From: Syntrophomonas sp.
GTDB taxonomy: Bacteria; Bacillota; Syntrophomonadia; Syntrophomonadales; Syntrophomonadaceae
Assembly (NCBI GenBank): GCA_039679855.1
Contig: JBDKUE010000111.1
Span: 16,846 to 80,845, forward strand
DNA: 64,000 nt
Reading direction: 5' to 3'
How positions within the stretch are numbered: position 1 is the stretch's first letter; each line of letters starts with the position of its first letter. The notes beneath the pieces were generated by a model. That model did not search any database. It saw only the letters and a program-made list of their open reading frames with translations, and was not told where the DNA came from. Shown piece after piece: positions 6,171-60,639 of this stretch. Made by a program: the position numbers and the translations under genes.

Positions 6171-6401
6171 TTAAGCCGTAATTTTGCTGACCAGCATAAA
6201 CGCAATCAGCAGACCGTAAATAGTCAGGGTTTCAATAAAAGCCAGGGTAATGAACAGAAGAGTTCTTACATCCCCTCCGACTTCGGGTTGCCGCGCGATT
6301 GCTTCGAAAGCCTTACCTCCGGCTACTCCCATTCCTATACCACCACCGATACCGGCGATAGATACAGCCAGACCAGCACCTAATGCTATCGTACTGCCCA
6401 T
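6171..6401 (-). CDS. atpE: Fo ATP synthase c subunit
   Basis: Gly-rich helix 1 ([13 protein letters not shown]), loop ARQPE and a helix-2 carboxylate ([11 protein letters not shown]). Start placed at the internal ATG preceded by AGGAGGG; the track ORF's upstream TTG at 6425 contains that RBS. Confidence 0.9.
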
Positions 6402-6463
6402 CTTTTTCCCTCCTTTCCCGCTCAAAAATGTATCTTTGAGCCTAAAATTTCATTGAACTGAAT

Positions 6464-7147
6464 TTAATGACCATGTCCTGCCGCGGCTGCGATGTAGCTA
6501 GATGACAGGATTGTAAACACTATTGCCTGAATGGCTCCTAGCAATAAGCTAAGGCCCATGATTAGAGATGGTACTACGAATGGCGCCATAAACAGTAAGA
6601 ATGCTATAACCATTTCTTCACCGAATATGTTCCCGAAAAGACGGACGGTGAGGGACAACGGGTGTGCCACTTCTTCAATCAGGTTCAATGGCAACATTGC
6701 AACACTTGGGCTGACAAAATGCCCGAGGTAGTGTGCTCCGTGTTCTGAAAAACCGGCGATGTGAACCGAGAAAAAGGTGACCAGTGCGAGAGTCATCGTA
6801 ACGTTCCAGTTGCTGGTAGGCGGTTGGTAACCCGCAACATGAGCTGCTCCCGGGATAAGACCGCTGTAGTTACTGATTAGAATAAAGAGGAAGAATGTTG
6901 TAAGCACCGGAGCCCATTTCTTGGCTACGTGCTCTTCTTCCATCAATTGAGTGAAAAAGTCGTAGGTAAATACTATTGCTGCTTCCCAAACATTTTGCAG
7001 GCCCCGTGGTACTACCTGCATGTTACGGGTGGCCGCAAATGCAAATATCCCAATCAACGCTATGATTGCCCATTCGGTTACCACCAGGTGGTCTACGTTA
7101 ATCGACCCAATCTTGAATAACGCTTCGTCCCACATTCCAAAGATCAT
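6464..7147 (-). CDS. atpB: Fo ATP synthase a subunit
   Basis: 227 aa polytopic protein with the conserved Arg region LTVRLFGNIFGEE. Confidence 0.95.
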   Translation of the reverse strand: MIFGMWDEALFKIGSINVDHLVVTEWAIIALIGIFAFAATRNMQVVPRGLQNVWEAAIVFTYDFFTQLMEEEHVAKKWAPVLTTFFLFILISNYSGLIPGAAHVAGYQPPTSNWNVTMTLALVTFFSVHIAGFSEHGAHYLGHFVSPSVAMLPLNLIEEVAHPLSLTVRLFGNIFGEEMVIAFLLFMAPFVVPSLIMGLSLLLGAIQAIVFTILSSSYIAAAAGHGH

Positions 7148-7824: not shown

Positions 7825-8241
7825 AGTACTCTGTTAATCCTGATTCTGTGTATCACTCGTCGAGGGAAATTTTTGTAGAACAAGGCGGGTGGTCGCTCCT
7901 TGCCATCCTGGCACCGCGACATTAACCCGTCACTGGGCGTCAGCTCCTTGGCCTCCTGCCACCGGGTGGCTCTTTCGCCGTCCTGGCGACCACCACATTA
8001 GCCCATCACTGGGCGTCACAGCTCTTTGCCATCCTGGCATCGCTGCACTAGACCGTCCATGGTCGTCGCCACCATTAGCCCGTCAGTGGGCGTCTCACGG
8101 CTCCTTGCCGTCCTGGCACCGCCGTATTAGCCCGTCAGTGGGCGTCAATGAGTAATACTGGACGTATTGCTACCCACGACAACGCAGTGCTGCGAAGATT
8201 TAACCGACGATAATATATAGAATTAGGGTTCACAGAGTACT
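7825..8241 (+). mobile_element. MITE-like palindromic element, copy A (expanded, 417 bp)
   Basis: Terminal inverted repeats AGTACTCTGTTAATCCTGATTCTGTGTAT ... ATATATAGAATTAGGGTTCACAGAGTACT. About 90% identical to copy C outside the amplified core. No ORF of its own. Confidence 0.8.
7895..8147 (+). repeat. tandem array of about 4-5 units of ~48-52 bp inside copy A
   Basis: Unit GCTCCTTGCCGTCCTGGCACCGCCGTATTAGCCCGTCAGTGGGCGTCA, repeated head to tail with partial and degenerate units. Copies B and C carry a single unit. Confidence 0.85.
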
Positions 8242-15665: not shown

Positions 15666-15689
15666 GAAAAGCTCAGTATTTTTTGCTGT

Positions 15690-16712
15690 TCAATCTGCCT
15701 GCTCTCCATCATGCTCCCGAAACATCTCTTTATTCTCTTCACCTTCATAGCGGTAGCGCAGTTTATAAAAATGCTGATCAAACATATTGTCATATGGTGT
15801 AAAGTCATCGGGATTATCTTCGTCATCCTTGATCTTGTTCCAGAATACATGCATTTTGGCGTCGAGATTGTCCATCATGTGCAGGAGAAAGGCTTCCGGA
15901 TAGAGAGGCTTGACCGGTGAACCGAATTCCAACAATCCATGATGGCTTAAAACCATATGTTTTAGCATGAGCTCCAACTGCTCGGGAAAAGGCTCCCCTT
16001 CATTGCGGAGCTGGTTTATATGGTAGGCCAGCATTTCACTGCCTATGTAAATGTGCCCCAACATGCGCCCTGCGGCGGTGTATTCGGCTGCCGCCTTGAA
16101 CTTCAGTTCTTCCACTTTACCCATGTCATGCAGGAGGGCACCTGCCACTACCAGGTCCTGGTTGAGCTCAGGATAAAGCGATGAGGTCTGCCGGCACAGA
16201 CCGGCCACTGACACGGTATGCTCCAGAAGTCCCCCGGCATACTGATGGTGAATACGGCGCGCGGCCGGGGCCCGGAAAAACTCCTCCAGGAAAGAATCGG
16301 AAAAGATTCTCGAAATCAGCTTCTTTAAATAGGGATCACTTAGGAAACCAATCAGATCCTGAAACTGCTGTTTTAAACTCTCCAGCCCGGCAGCCGCCTT
16401 CTGATAGGGGAGCGGGTCCTCGGCCAGGCTCTTTAACCGGCGCACGGTAATCTGCTGGCGTCCGTTATAGATGCTGGTGTCCCCCAGCACCCCGGTAACC
16501 TTGCCTATTTCCAATATGCCCGCAATCGCACAGTTGTCCCAGGCCACGGCATCTATCTCGCCGGAGAGATCGCCCAGGCGCAGATTTATAACCGCCTTTC
16601 CGTCCCGGGTGCGGCGTTCAACCTTGTCCAGAATCAGGTATTTACCCCATATCTGCTTTCCGGAAGGAATCATTTTTAATTCTCTGACCGAAAACGGTCC
16701 TTTTTTATCCAT
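15690..16712 (-). CDS. YhaM-like 3'-5' exoribonuclease (OB-fold + HD domain)
   Basis: 340 aa with an N-terminal OB-fold-like region and an HD domain carrying HHQYAGGLLEH and LLHDMGK. Confidence 0.8.
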   Translation of the reverse strand: MDKKGPFSVRELKMIPSGKQIWGKYLILDKVERRTRDGKAVINLRLGDLSGEIDAVAWDNCAIAGILEIGKVTGVLGDTSIYNGRQQITVRRLKSLAEDPLPYQKAAAGLESLKQQFQDLIGFLSDPYLKKLISRIFSDSFLEEFFRAPAARRIHHQYAGGLLEHTVSVAGLCRQTSSLYPELNQDLVVAGALLHDMGKVEELKFKAAAEYTAAGRMLGHIYIGSEMLAYHINQLRNEGEPFPEQLELMLKHMVLSHHGLLEFGSPVKPLYPEAFLLHMMDNLDAKMHVFWNKIKDDEDNPDDFTPYDNMFDQHFYKLRYRYEGEENKEMFREHDGEQAD

Positions 16713-30342: not shown

Positions 30343-30541
30343 GTACCCTGTTAACTCTAATTGTGTATTTTCACAATTTAAGGACAAGGCGGCTGCTCCT
30401 TGCCGTCCTGGCACCGCCGCACTTGCCCGTCCCTGGGCTTCGTTTTTCATCGCACTACTGCTCGTATTGTGATTAAAAACAACGCAGTCATACGGGAATT
30501 TGGCCGACGAGGAAAATATAGAATTAGAGTTGGCAGGGTAC
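30343..30541 (+). mobile_element. MITE-like palindromic element, copy B (divergent, 199 bp)
   Basis: Ends GTACCCTGTTAACTCTAATTGTGTAT ... ATATAGAATTAGAGTTGGCAGGGTAC, with one core unit GCTCCTTGCCGTCCTGGCACCGCCGC.... About 70% identical to copies A and C. Confidence 0.75.
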
Positions 30542-30542
30542 T

Positions 30543-34883: not shown

Positions 34884-34930
34884 AGTACCCTACCAATCCT
34901 AATTCTATACGATATCGACCGGTTGCGCTT
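34884..34930 (-). repeat. solo terminal fragment of the MITE-like element (copy D)
   Basis: AGTACCCTACCAATCCTAATTCTATACGATATCGACCGGTT matches the reverse complement of the right end of copies A and C. No core and no second end. Confidence 0.6.
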
Positions 34931-45696: not shown

Positions 45697-45781
45697 TTTA
45701 TATTACCACTGATTAGGAATTTTTACTTTAAGCCGCGGCCTTGATACATAAAAAGCCCCCCTCATCTGCTATAATATCCCT

Positions 45782-45994
45782 AGTACACTGTTAATCCTAA
45801 TTCTGTGTATTGCTCGTCGAGGGAAATTTTTGTAGGACAAGGCGGGCAGCTCCTTGCCGTCCTGGCACCGCTGCATTAGCCCGTCCATGGGCGTCAAGGA
45901 ATGAGTAATACTGGACGTATTGCGACTGACGACAACGCAGTAATACAAAAATTTAACCGACGAAAATATATAGAATTAGGGTTAACAGAGTACT
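45782..45994 (+). mobile_element. MITE-like palindromic element, copy C (canonical, 213 bp)
   Basis: TIRs AGTACACTGTTAATCCTAATTCTGTGTAT ... ATATATAGAATTAGGGTTAACAGAGTACT. Arm complementarity extends about 50 bp inward (GCTCGTCGAGGGAAATTTTTGTA / TACAAAAATTTAACCGACGAAAA). One core unit. Confidence 0.8.
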
Positions 45995-46108
45995 TGCACA
46001 CTGATGCTCGTGTTCTGAATGTTACTCGCCAAAGGTAATTTCGGCGATAATAACATATTCAATTTGGAGTTAAACAGTGTGCCAAACCAGGAAGGAGGCA
46101 CTTAACGA

Positions 46109-53709: not shown

Positions 53710-54815
53710 ACCGTATAATCGCGGTCTTAAAGAAGGAATTTATCCAAATGCGCCGGGATCGGATGACTTTTGCCCTGGTTCTGTTGATTCCTCTGGTTCA
53801 GCTGCTTTTGTTCGGCTATGCCATCCAGACCGAGGTAAAGCATATCCCCACGGTGGTATTCGATCAGTCATTGAGTGAAGAAAGCCGTGAGCTATTAAGC
53901 GCTTTTACCTCCTCAAGCTATTTTGACATACTCTACACCGCCCAAAGTTATGATGAAGTCACAACTTATATAGACAGCGGCAAGGCCAAAGCAGGGATAA
54001 TTTTGCCCCCTGATTTCGCCCGCAACCTGCAGCGCCAGGACCCGGCTCAGGTTCAGGTTCTGGTTGATGCCAGCGACAACATGGTAGCCAATCAGGCCCT
54101 GGCCACCGCCAACGCCATTGGACTTATCCGCTCCCAGAAGATCATTTTGAACCAACTGCACCTGGAGGGAGCCCCTCTGGATATCCGGGTGCGACCCTGG
54201 TATAATCCGGACGGAATCACCGCTTATTATATGGTTCCAGCCATCCTGGGCATCATTGTAACCATGACCATGGTGATCATCACCGCGGCTGCTATCGTGA
54301 GAGAACGGGAAAGGGGCACCATGGAGCAGCTGATCGTTACTCCCATAAAGCCTATCGAATTGATGCTGGGTAAAATAATTCCCTATGTATTGCTGGGTTA
54401 TCTCCAGATTACCGTGGCCTTGCTGGTAGGGGTTTTCTTTTTTGATGTGCCCATCCGGGGCAGCCTTTTGGAATTATATCTCTTGACCCTGTTCTTTATC
54501 ACCGCTTCACTGGGTTTGGGCTTGATGGTTTCCAATATAGCCCGCAATCAGATGCAGGCTTTTCAAATGGCCTTTATGATCATGCTGCCTAGCATCTTGC
54601 TGTCCGGATTTTTATTCCCCCGGGAAGCCATGCCCAGGGTGATCTACTGGATAAGCTGCGTAATCCCTTTAACCTACTACCTGGACATAATTCGCGGCAT
54701 TATCCTTAAAGGAATCGGTTTTCAGTATCTCATGGGACAGGTTGCGGTTCTCTTCGTCTTTTCAGTTGTTTTCGTAACCATCAGCACCCTGCGTTTTCGC
54801 AAAACCGTCGCTTGA
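53706..54815 (+). CDS. ABC-2 type transporter permease
   Basis: 369 aa with an N-terminal TM helix, a large extracytoplasmic loop and five C-terminal TM helices (YbhS/YbhR-like). Confidence 0.88.
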   Translation: MNRIIAVLKKEFIQMRRDRMTFALVLLIPLVQLLLFGYAIQTEVKHIPTVVFDQSLSEESRELLSAFTSSSYFDILYTAQSYDEVTTYIDSGKAKAGIILPPDFARNLQRQDPAQVQVLVDASDNMVANQALATANAIGLIRSQKIILNQLHLEGAPLDIRVRPWYNPDGITAYYMVPAILGIIVTMTMVIITAAAIVRERERGTMEQLIVTPIKPIELMLGKIIPYVLLGYLQITVALLVGVFFFDVPIRGSLLELYLLTLFFITASLGLGLMVSNIARNQMQAFQMAFMIMLPSILLSGFLFPREAMPRVIYWISCVIPLTYYLDIIRGIILKGIGFQYLMGQVAVLFVFSVVFVTISTLRFRKTVA

Positions 54816-54832
54816 TAGGGGAGGGTATATTT

Positions 54833-55447
54833 GTGGGCATTAAAGAAAGAGTACTTAAGGCCTGCCAGGAATTGATCCTGGACTATGGATACCGCGGCTT
54901 TTCAATGGATCAATTGGCCAGTCTGGCCGGGGTCAGCAAAAGAACGCTTTACCGCCATTTTGCCAACCGGGACGCGGTGATTGAAGCTACCCTGAATGCA
55001 TTTATGCAGAGAATGGCCGGGTTTGCCGATGGTCTGATCCAGAACGAAAAGGATCCTGTTGCTTTGATTAAAGCCATGTTTACTGCCATAACCACGGAAG
55101 GGCAATTCGCCTTAAATCCCCGGTCTATGGATGATCTCAGGCGCTTTTATCCCCATCTCTGGATCATGATCGATGATTTTCGGCAGGAAAGACTGCGCAG
55201 TATTTTCGCCCTGTTCAACTCCCAGGGTTATATAAAAAACGCCGAAAAGGTCAACCCCGCGATAGCCTTGCAGATGGCAAGCTCGGCCATCCAAAACGTA
55301 TTGAACCCGGATTTTCTGCTTAATAACAACTTGAGCTTTCAGGAAGCCTGCCTGGATTTAAGCAAGATTATGCTGTACGGTTTGTTGGGCTCCTCCCCTG
55401 AAGATGCCCTCCGGACAGGTGGAGAAAAAGAGTCTCTAAACGCCTAG
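54833..55447 (+). CDS. TetR/AcrR-family transcriptional regulator
   Basis: N-terminal HTH (GYRGFSMDQLASLAGVSKRTLYRHF). Start at the GTG 8 nt after GGGGAGGG. Confidence 0.88.
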   Translation: MGIKERVLKACQELILDYGYRGFSMDQLASLAGVSKRTLYRHFANRDAVIEATLNAFMQRMAGFADGLIQNEKDPVALIKAMFTAITTEGQFALNPRSMDDLRRFYPHLWIMIDDFRQERLRSIFALFNSQGYIKNAEKVNPAIALQMASSAIQNVLNPDFLLNNNLSFQEACLDLSKIMLYGLLGSSPEDALRTGGEKESLNA

Positions 55448-58547: not shown

Positions 58548-58699
58548 ATACTATATGCAAAAACCACCAGACATGTGAAGCACTATCCATCACCACGATT
58601 CCACTCGCTTCGCGCAAAAAATAAAACACCAAATCCAAAACAATTGCCTTAAGCAAATCACCAGAGCGGTCCTGGAAGTTAAGAGCAAGGCACGAATAA

Positions 58700-58862
58700 A
58701 GCCTGCGTCGGAAACGTACTAAAGTACGTTGACGAGCAGGCTTTGTGAGTAACGCAGCCGACACCCATGGACGGGTTAGTGCGGCGGTGCCAGGATGGCA
58801 AGGAGCCGCCGACGCCCATTGACGGGCTAGTGCAGCGATGCCAGGACGGCATAGAGCTGCGA
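58700..58862 (-). repeat. rearranged derivative of the MITE-like element (copy E)
   Basis: Two tandem core units in reverse orientation (GACACCCATGGACGGGTTAGTGCGGCGGTGCCAGGATGGCAAGGAGC and a second), preceded by a ~40-bp palindrome GCCTGCGTCGGAAACGTACT-AA-AGTACGTTGACGAGCAGGC. No canonical TIRs. Confidence 0.65.
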
Positions 58863-58863
58863 A

Positions 58864-60639
58864 TTAGCTTTCAGGGCCGGTCTGGGCTCTAGTTATTTTG
58901 GCCCAGCTGTCGCGTAGAGACACGATGCGGTTGAAAACCAGCTTATCACCTTTGGTGTCAATGGGATCCAGGTAGAAGTAGCCCTGACGCAGGAACTGGA
59001 AGCGGCTGCCAGGGTAGGCCTCGGCCAGAGCCGGCTCGGCCAGGCACCCGTTCAGTTCCTCCAATGAATTCACATTGATTTTCTGACGGAAGTCAATGCC
59101 ATCCTCGTCATTATCCGGCGTTTCGCTCAGGAATAACTGATCATACAGCCTCACTGTCGCTGTCCGGGCATGGGAACCAGACACCCAGTGGGCGGTTCCT
59201 TTTACTTTTCTTCCACTGGTGGCTCCCCCGCTCTTGGACTCGGGGTCGTAGGTGCAGCGTAGTTCGGTAATATTTCCCGCGCCGTCTTTTATAACTTCCT
59301 CACAGCGAATTATATAAGCGCTCTTCAATCGCATTTCCCCCCCCGGACGCAGGCGGAAAAACTTTTTGGGGGGATCCTCCATAAAGTCTTCCTGTTCTAT
59401 ATAGATCGTCCGTGAAAAGGGTATCTGGCGTTTTCCCATGGCTGGATTTTCCGGATTATTCTCCGTATCCAACCATTCCACCTGATCTTCCGGGTAGTTG
59501 GTAATGACCAGTTTCAAGGGACGTAAAACCACCATCGCCCGAGAGGCTTTCTCGTTCAGATTTTCCCTGATGCAGTGTTCCAGCAGCGCATAGTCAACCG
59601 TGCTGTTTCTCTTGGCAACCCCGATGCGGTCGCAGAAATCCCTGATCGCTTCAGGAGTGTACCCGCGCCGGCGCAATCCGGAAATAGTCGGCATGCGCGG
59701 ATCATCCCAACCGCCCACTATTTTCTCTTCTACCAGGGCCCGCAGTTTCCTCTTGCTCATAACCGTATAACCCAGGTTCAGGCGGGCAAATTCTATCTGC
59801 TGCGGTCGGGTTTCCACCTGGCGGGGATAGGCGCTTAAGGGAAGGGCCTCCAGACACCAGTCATACAGAGGGCGATGATCGGCAAACTCCAGGGTGCACA
59901 CCGAATGAGTAATATTTTCAAAGGCATCCGAAAGGGGATGGGCATAGTCGTACATCGGGTAAATACACCAATCGTCACCGGTGCGGTGATGAGTTGAGCG
60001 CAGTATCCGGTATAATACGGGGTCCCGCATATTCAAGTTGGGGGAAGCCATATCGATCTTGGCTCTTAACACCCGGCTGCCATCCTCAAATTCACCCGCC
60101 CTCATGCGCCGGAACAGATCCAGGTTTTCTTCCACAGAACGCTCACGGTAGGGGCTTTCCTTGCCCGGATCAGTCAAAGTGCCGCGAAAATCCTTGATCT
60201 GCTGGGCGCTCAAATCGCATACGTAGGCTTTGCCGTGTTTTATAAGCTCCTCGGCATAGAGGTAGAGTGCTTCAAAATAATCGGAGGCAAAAAACAGGCG
60301 ATCATCCCAGTCAAAGCCGAGCCAGCGGACATCTTCCTGAATCGAGTCGACAAACTCCACTTCTTCCTTGCTGGGATTGGTGTCGTCAAAACGCAGATTG
60401 GTCAGCCCGCCATTGGCTGCGGCCAGGCTGAAATTCAGGCAGATCGACTTGGCATGTCCTATATGCAGATATCCGTTGGGCTCGGGCGGAAAGCGGGTAT
60501 GCACCTTGCCGCCATTCTTGCCCTCCAGCTTATCCTGGTCAATGATGTTTTGTATAAAATTCACCGGCTTTTGGATTTCCTTAAGCCCGGCGTCTATTTC
60601 CGTCTGTTCTTTTTTAATTTCTACTTCATCTCTGGCCAT
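58864..60639 (-). CDS. glnS: glutaminyl-tRNA synthetase
   Basis: 591 aa with [16 protein letters not shown] and VMSKRK motifs. Confidence 0.96.

What the first reader, a model, noticed from the sequence alone, without database searches (positions are those of the whole stretch)
45782..45994. Unrecognised ~200-bp MITE-like palindromic element family, five copies in 64 kb, all intergenic
The canonical copy C has ~28-bp terminal inverted repeats (AGTACACTGTTAATCCTAATTCTGTGTAT / ATATATAGAATTAGGGTTAACAGAGTACT). Arm complementarity continues about 50 bp inward, so the whole element can fold into a long hairpin around a GC-rich core (GGACAAGGCGGGCAGCTCCTTGCCGTCCTGGCACCGCTGCATTAGCCCGTCCATGGGCGTCA...). 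Related copies lie at 7825-8241 (about 90% identical, core amplified), 30343-30541 (about 70%), 34884-34930 (solo end) and 58700-58862 (rearranged, inverted). None encodes a protein, no transposase is in the window, and I see no clear target-site duplication. Every copy lies at a gene boundary (atp operon upstream region, MBL stop/pyrG promoter, SLH/M1 spacer, HD-GYP/ppiB spacer, convergent MPE/glnS junction). That placement is compatible with a mobile element, but also with a structured RNA or protein-binding insulator. I cannot match it to any IS family or RNA family I know.
Basis: seen in the sequence. Interest (0 to 1): 0.7.

Follow-up and report, generated by a model that had tools for sequence, protein, structure and literature searches.

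The report
TA-inserting modular hairpin MITE family
The repeat is real: it is a previously undescribed family of small non-coding "jumping" DNA hairpins (MITEs), abundant in Syntrophomonadaceae, that insert at TA sites between genes and carry an optional 51-base hairpin module. It is an ordinary kind of element with some unusual structural constraints.

Summary
All five copies exist as described. The basic unit is not the 213-nt copy C. It is a 160-nt foldback (GTAC…GTAC) flanked by TA on both sides. Copy C is that frame plus one 51-nt GC-rich module ("K") in its central loop, and copy A carries a nested array of about five K units. Public Syntrophomonadaceae genomes and metagenomes hold more than 200 copies. 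Related genomes differ by presence or absence of a copy. Two such sites are empty in this window, one of them a CTAG. The flanks read C-TA|element|TA-G, the signature of IS630/Tc1-mariner insertion. About 10% of element ends use the junction TA+G as a gene's TAG stop codon. No transposase was found in about 1.7 Mb around the copies. Three features are unusual. At least six arm subfamilies with different sequences share one conserved central domain. Arms and K hairpins covary heavily (35 of 47 arm pairs). Mismatches are G·U rather than A·C by 8:1 on one strand, whatever the orientation to neighbouring genes. There is no Rfam match, promoter, terminator or coding signal. Verdict: a new BOX/ERIC/Correia-like MITE family. 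The mobilising enzyme and the meaning of the strand-specific fold remain open.

The parts
45782..45994 (+). Copy C: full element. It comprises the left arm, one K module, and the central domain plus right arm. The transposed unit proper is GTAC…GTAC, 45783-45993. The flanking dinucleotides are TA (45781-45782) and TT (45994-45995).
45782..45845 (+). C left arm (L, 64 nt): the terminal inverted repeat plus the inner stem, ending in GGACAAGGCGG.
45846..45896 (+). C K module (51 nt): hairpin P1/P1a (GCAGC…[GCC GUCCU GGC]…GCUGC) and hairpin P2 (GCCC GUCCAU GGGC).
45897..45994 (+). C central conserved domain (AGGAATGAGTAATACTGGACGTATTGCGACTGACGACAACGCAGT, with the hairpin GUAAUAC/GUAUUGC), followed by the right arm.
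7825..8241 (+). Copy A: the same frame with a tandem and nested array of about five K units. The flanks are GA and TA.
7889..8147 (+). K array of copy A. The 88-aa ORF 7889-8155 inside it is spurious.
30343..30542 (+). Copy B: a diverged full element with one K. It is shared with the related genome FI3 (locus L025), so it is an old insertion.
34884..34921 (-). Copy D: a remnant holding the last ~38 nt of a right arm, with TA at its tip. It is also present in FI3.
58760..58860 (-). Copy E: two tandem K modules without arms. They lie in sense orientation directly after the stop codon of the tRNA-synthetase gene 58864-60639 and before a hairpin at about 58690-58745.
55444..55447 (.). Empty target site CTAG. 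It overlaps the TAG stop of ORF 54812-55447. The orthologous site in genome FI3 (L048 3032-3193) holds a 162-nt copy.
15686..15690 (.). Empty site. The orthologous site in Syntrophomonas sp. UBA5314 (L041 5731-6037) holds a copy flanked by TA/TA.

Best explanation
This is a family of non-autonomous DNA transposons (MITEs) of Syntrophomonadaceae.

Shown:
- The unit that moves is a 160-nt foldback, GTAC…GTAC.
- It lands at a TA, preferentially in CTAG or CTAA, and often at the TA of a TAG/TAA stop codon. It ends up flanked by TA on both sides.
- Its first G and last C rebuild TAG on either strand, so genes that abut it keep their stop codon.
- The element is modular: left arm, conserved central domain, right arm.
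- A separate 51-nt GC-rich two-hairpin module, K, sits in the central loop in 0 to about 5 tandem or nested copies. K is gained or lost in place and also occurs alone.
- In the window, C is the frame plus one K, A is the frame plus a K array, B is an old diverged copy, D is a decayed end, and E is two K units alone in a 3' UTR.

Inferred:
- Copies are moved in trans by a TA-duplicating DDE transposase of the IS630/Tc1-mariner type encoded elsewhere in the genome.
- At some stage of its life cycle the element must fold as a single strand. The + strand pairs through G·U where the - strand would have A·C.
For: - Copy number and spread: a terminal-repeat pattern finds 79 loci, nearly all in Syntrophomonadaceae genomes.
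- Modularity: L + K(0-4) + R, and about half of 67 full copies lack the core, at 160-162 nt.
- Flanks over 67 copies: C 54, T 48 | A 48, G 36.
- Flanks over 125 copies found through the centre, so unbiased at the ends: TA|TA in 76. Left C/T/A are 88/100/110 and right T/A/G are 118/102/65.
- The element's own G2 and penultimate C are about 96-99% conserved, while the outer C and G are only preferences. This favours a 2-bp duplication over a 4-bp one.
- Occupied versus empty orthologous sites: window 55444-55447 CTAG vs L048; window ~15687 vs L041; L054 vs L212; L095 vs L176/L001; L028 vs L066.
- IS630/Tc1-mariner elements duplicate TA, and IS630 prefers TA in CTAG (PMC2170065).
- 22 of 228 element ends coincide with the TAG stop of an ORF of at least 100 codons, against 3 or fewer at control offsets.
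- All copies are intergenic with no orientation preference to flanking genes: 17:23 and 31:33.
- No Rfam hit, no promoter or terminator, and no codon-position bias, 63/43/58.
- K present or absent in orthologous copies: L084/L089, L097/L095, and the near-identical strains L132 vs L120/L043.
Against: - No autonomous parent was found. Terminal-repeat pairs 0.6-3.5 kb apart enclose only ordinary genes. No Y1/HUH motif or mariner-like hit occurs among 4255 ORFs from about 1.7 Mb around the copies. Both collection scans were capped, so absence is not shown.
- The central domain is more conserved than the arms. Arm subfamilies I and II share almost nothing but GTAC. That is the reverse of a typical MITE and awkward for recognition by one sequence-specific transposase.
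- The G·U:A·C ratio of 588:71 is not expected for double-strand cut-and-paste.
- Several empty/occupied comparisons are blurred by 10-15% divergence. One (L072 vs L186) shows no TA in the empty site, and one (L066 vs L028) has CA on the left and TA on the right.
Confidence: 0.7

Rival explanations
1. Single-strand hairpin transposition. The element moves as a folded + strand DNA, mobilised by an HUH/Y1 enzyme (in the manner of REPIN-RAYT or IS200/IS605). It inserts 3' of a TA and carries its own 3' TA, so nothing is duplicated. K is a smaller element of the same type.
For: - The G·U excess on one strand is 8:1 and independent of neighbouring gene orientation.
- Arms covary to the very tip (GTGGTC/GACCAC, GTAGTC/GACTAC), as if shape rather than sequence were read.
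- Non-TA flanks are never duplicated: CA|TA 6 vs CA|CA 0, and AA|TA 6 vs AA|AA 0.
- The L066/L028 pair fits insertion after A without duplication.
- K inserts without duplication, always in one orientation, at several nearby positions, and is lost or gained as exactly 51 nt.
- Element orientation against the majority coding strand of the locus is 65 opposite to 33 same.
Against: - No Y1/HUH gene lies near about 200 copies.
- Known IS200/IS605 elements and REPs have subterminal hairpins, not ends that pair with each other over about 50 bp.
- The palindromic CTAG preference and symmetric TA flanks are what a DDE 2-bp staggered cut gives.
- The orientation count may be inflated by repeated sampling of the same organisms. 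Flanking-gene orientation shows no bias, 31:33.
Confidence: 0.13
2. A structured RNA element, acting either in cis within mRNAs or as a small RNA. Its conserved central domain and K hairpins would be functional, and the repeat family would spread or persist because the host uses the RNA.
For: - Pairing is 96.8-97.6% with many compensatory changes in the arms, the central hairpin and K.
- The consensus fold is -56 kcal/mol on the + strand and -25 kcal/mol on the - strand.
- The central domain is conserved across arm subfamilies.
- Copy C sits 6 nt after a conserved extended -10 (TGCTATAAT), in what may be the 5' UTR of the cyclophilin gene.
- E lies in a 3' UTR in sense orientation.
- ERIC, Correia and BOX elements act at RNA level when co-transcribed (PMC3049150, PMC3184786).
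Against: - The simple scan of copy C and its flanks found no promoter or terminator.
- There is no enrichment of -10 boxes upstream.
- Sense and antisense copies are equally common and have the same G·U excess, so the constraint is not imposed by local transcripts.
- Copies decay: D, and the deletion in UBA5314 at the C site.
- No Rfam family matches.
Confidence: 0.12
3. A DNA-level protein-binding site or nucleoid/insulator element, such as the REP/BIME sites that bind gyrase or IHF.
For: - The copies are intergenic, and the central domain is conserved.
- K is GC-rich, palindromic and clustered like REPs.
Against: - Nothing tested points to a protein partner.
- A double-strand binding site does not explain the one-strand G·U bias or the TA-flanked insertion polymorphism.
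Confidence: 0.03

Closest known systems
BOX elements of Streptococcus pneumoniae and S. suis (boxA-boxB(n)-boxC)
   Same: - Both are modular interspersed repeats. Terminal modules pair with each other, and an internal module is present in 0 to several tandem copies, folds on its own and varies in number between strains.
- In S. suis, different terminal modules surround the same internal module (PMC3049150). Here, different arm subfamilies likewise share one centre and K.
- Neither has a confirmed parent.
   Different: - I did not compare the sequences, and the host phyla differ in class.
- No target duplication could be identified for BOX in that study, whereas this family has TA|TA.
- K units are also nested inside one another and occur alone. 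A non-K central domain is the most conserved part.
ERIC/IRU (about 127 bp) and Correia/CREE (about 104-157 bp) MITEs
   Same: - All are imperfect palindromes of 100-160 bp with TIRs and 5'-TA-3' on both flanks.
- All are intergenic and present in many copies, with size variants caused by internal insertions or deletions.
- No autonomous parent is known, and they fold as RNA when co-transcribed (PMC3184786; PMC3049150).
   Different: - The sequences are unrelated and the hosts are Proteobacteria.
- Those families are defined by conserved TIRs. Here the TIRs differ between subfamilies while the centre is constant.
- I could not check in the held literature whether a comparable G·U strand bias has been quantified for them.
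RUP and other IS630-derived MITEs (Nezha, Stowaway-type)
   Same: They have TA target duplication and TIRs, and are mobilised in trans by an IS630/Tc1-mariner transposase (PMC3049150, PMC2170065).
   Different: RUP has a recognised parent, IS630-Spn1, with similar TIRs. No parent was found here.
REP/BIME/REPIN sequences (comparison for the K module only)
   Same: They are short GC-rich imperfect palindromes, extragenic, often just after stop codons, clustered, and used as landing sites within other repeats.
   Different: - K is 51 nt with two different hairpins.
- K units are tandem or nested in direct orientation, not in alternating orientation.
- No RAYT gene was seen.

Membership tests
MITE (generic) | Small (under ~500 bp), no coding capacity | tested here: met
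   Copies are 160-417 nt. The only candidate mini-ORF shows no codon-position bias (63/43/58) and carries frameshifts.
MITE (generic) | Terminal inverted repeats | tested here: met
   There are 18 paired terminal positions plus inner stems, and 97.6% of cells are paired.
MITE (generic) | Target-site duplication | tested here: met
   TA|TA occurs in 76 of 125 copies. Empty orthologous sites hold a single TA. A model in which the 3' TA belongs to the element cannot be excluded from sequence alone.
MITE (generic) | Many dispersed copies with presence/absence polymorphism between related genomes | tested here: met
MITE (generic) | An autonomous element with the same ends in the same hosts | tested here: inconclusive
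   None was found in about 200 loci (about 1.7 Mb). Whole genomes could not be scanned, and both collection scans were capped.
IS630/Tc1-mariner-derived element | Duplication of a TA dinucleotide, with preference for CTAG | tested here: met
   Flank consensus is C-TA|…|TA-G. The empty site in the window is CTAG. Literature basis: PMC2170065.
IS630/Tc1-mariner-derived element | Ends resemble those of a named IS630-family member | not testable with these tools
   No ISfinder library was available. blastn against plasmid and phage collections found nothing.
BOX elements | A-B(n)-C modular build with an independently folding, variable-number internal module | tested here: met
   The build is L-K(0-5)-R. 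K folds on its own, with 7 of 13 pairs compensatory. This is a resemblance in architecture only.
BOX elements | Sequence homology to boxA/boxB/boxC | not tested
   No BOX sequences were at hand. The hosts are unrelated, so I do not file the element as BOX.
REP/BIME (for K) | Short GC-rich extragenic palindrome, associated with a RAYT gene, in clusters of alternating orientation | tested here: not met
   K is GC-rich and extragenic. However, clusters are direct or nested, and no HUH/Y1 ORF was found.
IS200/IS605-type non-autonomous element (PATE) | Subterminal hairpins at each end, no TIR, no duplication, Y1 transposase | tested here: not met
   The frame has long TIRs and TA on both sides. K has two hairpins and no duplication, but no Y1 gene was found.
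Any Rfam 15 RNA family | Covariance-model match | tested here: not met
   There were 0 hits at gathering threshold over the whole window and 0 hits at E<=10 over copy C.

The most novel reading that the evidence does not exclude
The family may not be a classical cut-and-paste MITE. It may instead be a mobile element whose transposition or persistence depends on a folded single strand, either DNA or RNA. In that reading the recognised part would be the conserved central domain (with its K hairpins) plus the shape of a long stem ending at TA, rather than a terminal sequence. That would explain three things: arms can be replaced wholesale yet stay complementary to the last base, G·U outnumbers A·C 8:1 on one strand in every subfamily and orientation, and no parent with matching ends turns up. 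It could also hint at how other parent-less palindromic repeats (ERIC, Correia, BOX) move.
Probability: 0.15. Interest if true: 0.8.

Novelty: new member of a known kind. Interest (0 to 1): 0.48.

Why it matters
Syntrophomonadaceae are key fatty-acid-oxidising syntrophs of anaerobic digesters. Their genomes appear to carry on the order of one such element per 15-80 kb (window), which fragments assemblies (N runs inside copies in UBA5314) and sits in promoters, 3' UTRs and on stop codons. Annotators and RNA-motif hunters will keep hitting this repeat, so a model of it (frame plus K) prevents false 'novel ncRNA' or spurious ORF calls.

The family is also an unusually informative case for an old question: how parent-less palindromic MITEs are recognised and moved. 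It offers hundreds of copies, at least six arm subfamilies with one common centre, strain-level gain and loss of an internal module, and a clean strand asymmetry.

Tried and rejected
1. Known RNA family: Rfam at gathering threshold over the window and at E<=10 over copy C gave nothing.
2. Similar DNA in plasmids or phages: none. A terminal-repeat pattern in viral contigs gave 0 hits. A first 17-mer core pattern gave mostly chance hits.
3. Locating the window's own genome through an exact cyclophilin protein: not on record.
4. Autonomous parent:
   - Loci with only one end matched have no transposase next to them.
   - Inverted end pairs 0.45-3.5 kb apart enclose a ZIP-like permease, a TetR-like gene, a Mg-chelatase-like gene and an MCP-like gene. 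These names are my reading of the translations, not tested.
   - No long multi-copy segment occurs among the loci.
5. Mini-ORF behind GGAGGA (MSNTGRIAIDDNAV…): rejected. There is no third-position excess, there are frameshifts, and K often separates the SD from the ATG.
6. 4-bp CTAG duplication (IS5-like): rejected. The inner G/C are element bases (96-99% conserved), while the outer C/G are only preferences and disagree between the two sides in many copies.
7. Promoter supplied by the flank or by the element: no -10 enrichment and no consensus hit.
8. In-situ selection by host transcripts: rejected as the cause of the G·U bias, which is the same in both orientations.
9. Inter-phylum transfer to 'Calditrichales MX18-03': doubtful, because its flanking proteins are syntenic and 47-62% identical to Syntrophomonadaceae loci.
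10. Extra pairing in the central domain (TTGCG/CGCAG): all four combinations of the variable bases occur, so it is not supported (my reading).

Full report
**1. The observation**

Copy C (45782-45994) has 29-nt terminal inverted repeats, and pairing continues inward. It folds at -93 kcal/mol on the + strand (z = -9.1) and -79.3 kcal/mol on the - strand. A profile built from related copies finds A, B, C, the remnant D and nothing else in the window.

**2. Anatomy**

A degenerate pattern for the terminal repeat, scanned over one genome per species, returned 79 loci. Nearly all are from Syntrophomonadaceae or Syntrophomonas MAGs. Parsing these with the three parts of C shows a modular build:
- left arm L (C positions 1-64);
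- a 51-nt module K (positions 65-115), present 0 to 4 or more times;
- central domain plus right arm R (positions 116-213).

About half of 67 complete copies have no K and measure 160-162 nt. So C is the frame plus one K. A is the frame plus an array of about five K units, some nested in others. E is two K units alone.

**3. Insertion signature**

In 67 copies the two bases outside each end are strongly biased: C 54, T 48 | A 48, G 36. In 125 copies detected through the centre, so without bias at the ends, TA|TA flanks occur in 76. The consensus is C-TA|GT…AC|TA-G. The element's own G and C next to the TA are nearly invariant, whereas the outer C and G are only preferences and often differ between the two sides. 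This favours a 2-bp duplication over a 4-bp one.

Synteny with related genomes gives direct comparisons:
- Window 55444-55447 is an unoccupied CTAG where genome FI3 has a 162-nt copy.
- Window ~15687 is empty where UBA5314 has a copy flanked by TA/TA.
- B and D are shared with FI3.
- At the C site, UBA5314 keeps only the first ~36 nt.

Most show a single TA in the empty site, and a few are blurred by divergence.

TA duplication, with a preference for TA within CTAG, is the hallmark of IS630/Tc1-mariner transposition (PMC2170065). In addition, 22 of 228 element ends place the junction TA+G exactly as the TAG stop of an ORF of at least 100 codons, against 3 or fewer at control offsets. The element therefore rebuilds a stop codon on both strands. 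This explains how it can abut genes.

**4. What it is not**

- It matches no Rfam family.
- It has no similar DNA in the plasmid or phage collections.
- It shows no promoter- or terminator-like site and no -10 enrichment upstream.
- It has no orientation preference to flanking genes, 17:23 and 31:33.
- A 21-31-codon ORF behind GGAGGA is not coding. Substitutions by codon position are 63/43/58, frameshifts occur, and K can split the SD from the ATG.

**5. The unusual parts**

(a) One centre, many arms. One subfamily shares little beyond GTAC with the window type. All carry the same central domain and the same K, all are flanked by TA, and several coexist on one contig. The centre is thus more conserved than the terminal repeats, the reverse of a typical MITE.

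(b) Covariation.
- In 36 coreless copies, 97.6% of cells pair and 14 pairs show double changes, with 0 of 500 shuffles reaching the observed values.
- A covariance model aligned 82 distinct metagenome copies across subfamilies. There, 96.8% of cells pair and 35 of 47 pairs have compensatory changes, in 479 cells. The caveat is that this alignment is fitted to the model.
- K's three helices pair at 97.6%, with 7 of 13 pairs compensatory.

(c) Strand asymmetry.
- The consensus fold is -56 kcal/mol on the + strand and -25 kcal/mol on the - strand.
- Over 158 copies the arm mismatches are G·U 588 against A·C 71.
- The ratio is the same in copies that are sense (76:11) or antisense (71:14) to their neighbours. 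It is therefore a property of the element, not of local transcripts.
- Part of it is inherited from founders. Among low-frequency variants in one subfamily I counted roughly 28 G·U to 16 A·C from the table. But it recurs in unrelated arm subfamilies.

(d) K dynamics.
- K sits at several positions a few bases apart: after GGCG, GGCGG, GGCGGAG and GGCGGAGG.
- It is always in one orientation, shows no duplication, and appears or disappears as exactly 51 nt.
- Orthologous copies differ by K in three pairs, including strains whose flanks are 99.5-100% identical. In that last pair the element itself differs at about 7 other sites, so exchange between copies may be involved.
- K also occurs outside any frame: window E/L048, L108, L128 and L213.

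**6. Mechanism**

The best-supported account is a non-autonomous transposon moved in trans by a TA-duplicating DDE transposase. K would be a REP-like hairpin module that colonises the central loop.

Shown: multiplicity, polymorphism, TA flanks, target preference, modularity, structure constraints.

Inferred: the enzyme class, and a single-stranded folded stage.

The main weakness is that no parent was found in about 1.7 Mb around about 200 copies. However, whole genomes could not be scanned and both large scans were capped.

The rivals are listed with their evidence:
- single-strand HUH-type movement, in which the 3' TA is part of the element;
- a host-used structured RNA;
- a DNA-binding site.

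**7. Comparison and verdict**

In architecture the family is closest to pneumococcal and S. suis BOX elements, where variable-number internal modules lie between pairing terminal modules and different terminal modules surround the same internal one (PMC3049150). In insertion signature and size it is closest to ERIC, Correia and RUP (PMC3184786). There is no evidence of homology to any of them, and literature searches found no description of MITEs in Syntrophomonas.

I file it as a new member of a known kind. The single-strand constraint and the conserved centre are the features worth following up.

Noticed in passing
window 45767-45775 (TGCTATAAT), 6 nt upstream of copy C: An extended -10-like box sits just before the element and is conserved in UBA5314 (L051), although most of the element is deleted there. 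It may be the cyclophilin promoter, in which case copy C would lie in that gene's 5' UTR. The simple scan found no -35.
   Followed up: partly
window 58690-58745: A long perfect-ish hairpin (AAAGCCTGCGTCGGAAACGTACT AA AGTACGTTGACGAGCAGGCTTT) lies next to the two K units of E. Its tip reads GTACT-AA-AGTAC, like two element termini back to back. It is followed by TGAGTAACGCAGCC, which resembles a deleted piece of the central domain in the opposite orientation. It could be a terminator or a collapsed copy.
   Followed up: partly
L030, L036, L039, L057, L061, L065, L069, L073, L076, L081, L087, L092 (JAJGRE01, titled 'Calditrichales bacterium MX18-03'): This genome carries its own subfamily, with two private inserts including a 38-nt hairpin, on all its large contigs. 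Its flanking proteins are syntenic and 47-62% identical to Syntrophomonadaceae loci, and its GC matches. The taxonomic label therefore looks wrong, rather than this being cross-phylum transfer.
   Followed up: partly
125 copies in L021-L219 and the window: The element + strand is opposite to the majority coding strand of its ~8-kb locus in 65 cases, the same in 33 and mixed in 26. Immediate flanking genes show no bias (31:33). This may be a replication-strand effect or pseudo-replication from repeated sampling of the same organisms.
   Followed up: partly
L125 ~1950-2351 vs L032 2075-2236; L070 ~6400-6500 vs L074 5406-5567: Sites orthologous to occupied ones carry short odd sequences (GTAC-TA-GTAC in L125, GTATTAAATAT in L070) instead of a clean empty site. 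These may be excision footprints or collapsed copies.
   Followed up: no
L026, L041, L097, L099 (Syntrophomonas sp. UBA5314): Runs of N lie inside copies of the element. They mimic duplications of the right arm and are assembly gaps caused by the repeat.
   Followed up: yes
L047 2006-2247 and L090 652-943: A further ~80-nt insert sits inside the loop of the central hairpin (GTAATC[…]CTGGACG). It is a second kind of internal passenger besides K.
   Followed up: no
L073 6594-6754, L156: Single copies exactly fill the gap between two convergent genes. Each end supplies the TAG stop codon of one gene.
   Followed up: partly
L128 11134-13808; L182 145-2022; L170 2467-4563: Two copies in inverted orientation bracket ordinary genes (a Mg-chelatase-like gene and an MCP-like gene; these names are from reading the translations only). 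They form composite-transposon-like arrangements.
   Followed up: no
K loops and the central hairpin loop (e.g. window 45859-45863 GTCCT, 45883-45888 GTCCAT, 45912-45916 TGGAC): Both K hairpin loops contain GUCC. The central hairpin loop and the end of the left arm contain GGAC. This gives the potential for loop-loop (kissing) pairing.
   Followed up: no
window 7889-8155: An 88-aa ORF listed by the ORF finder lies wholly inside the K array of copy A and is an artefact of the repeat.
   Followed up: yes
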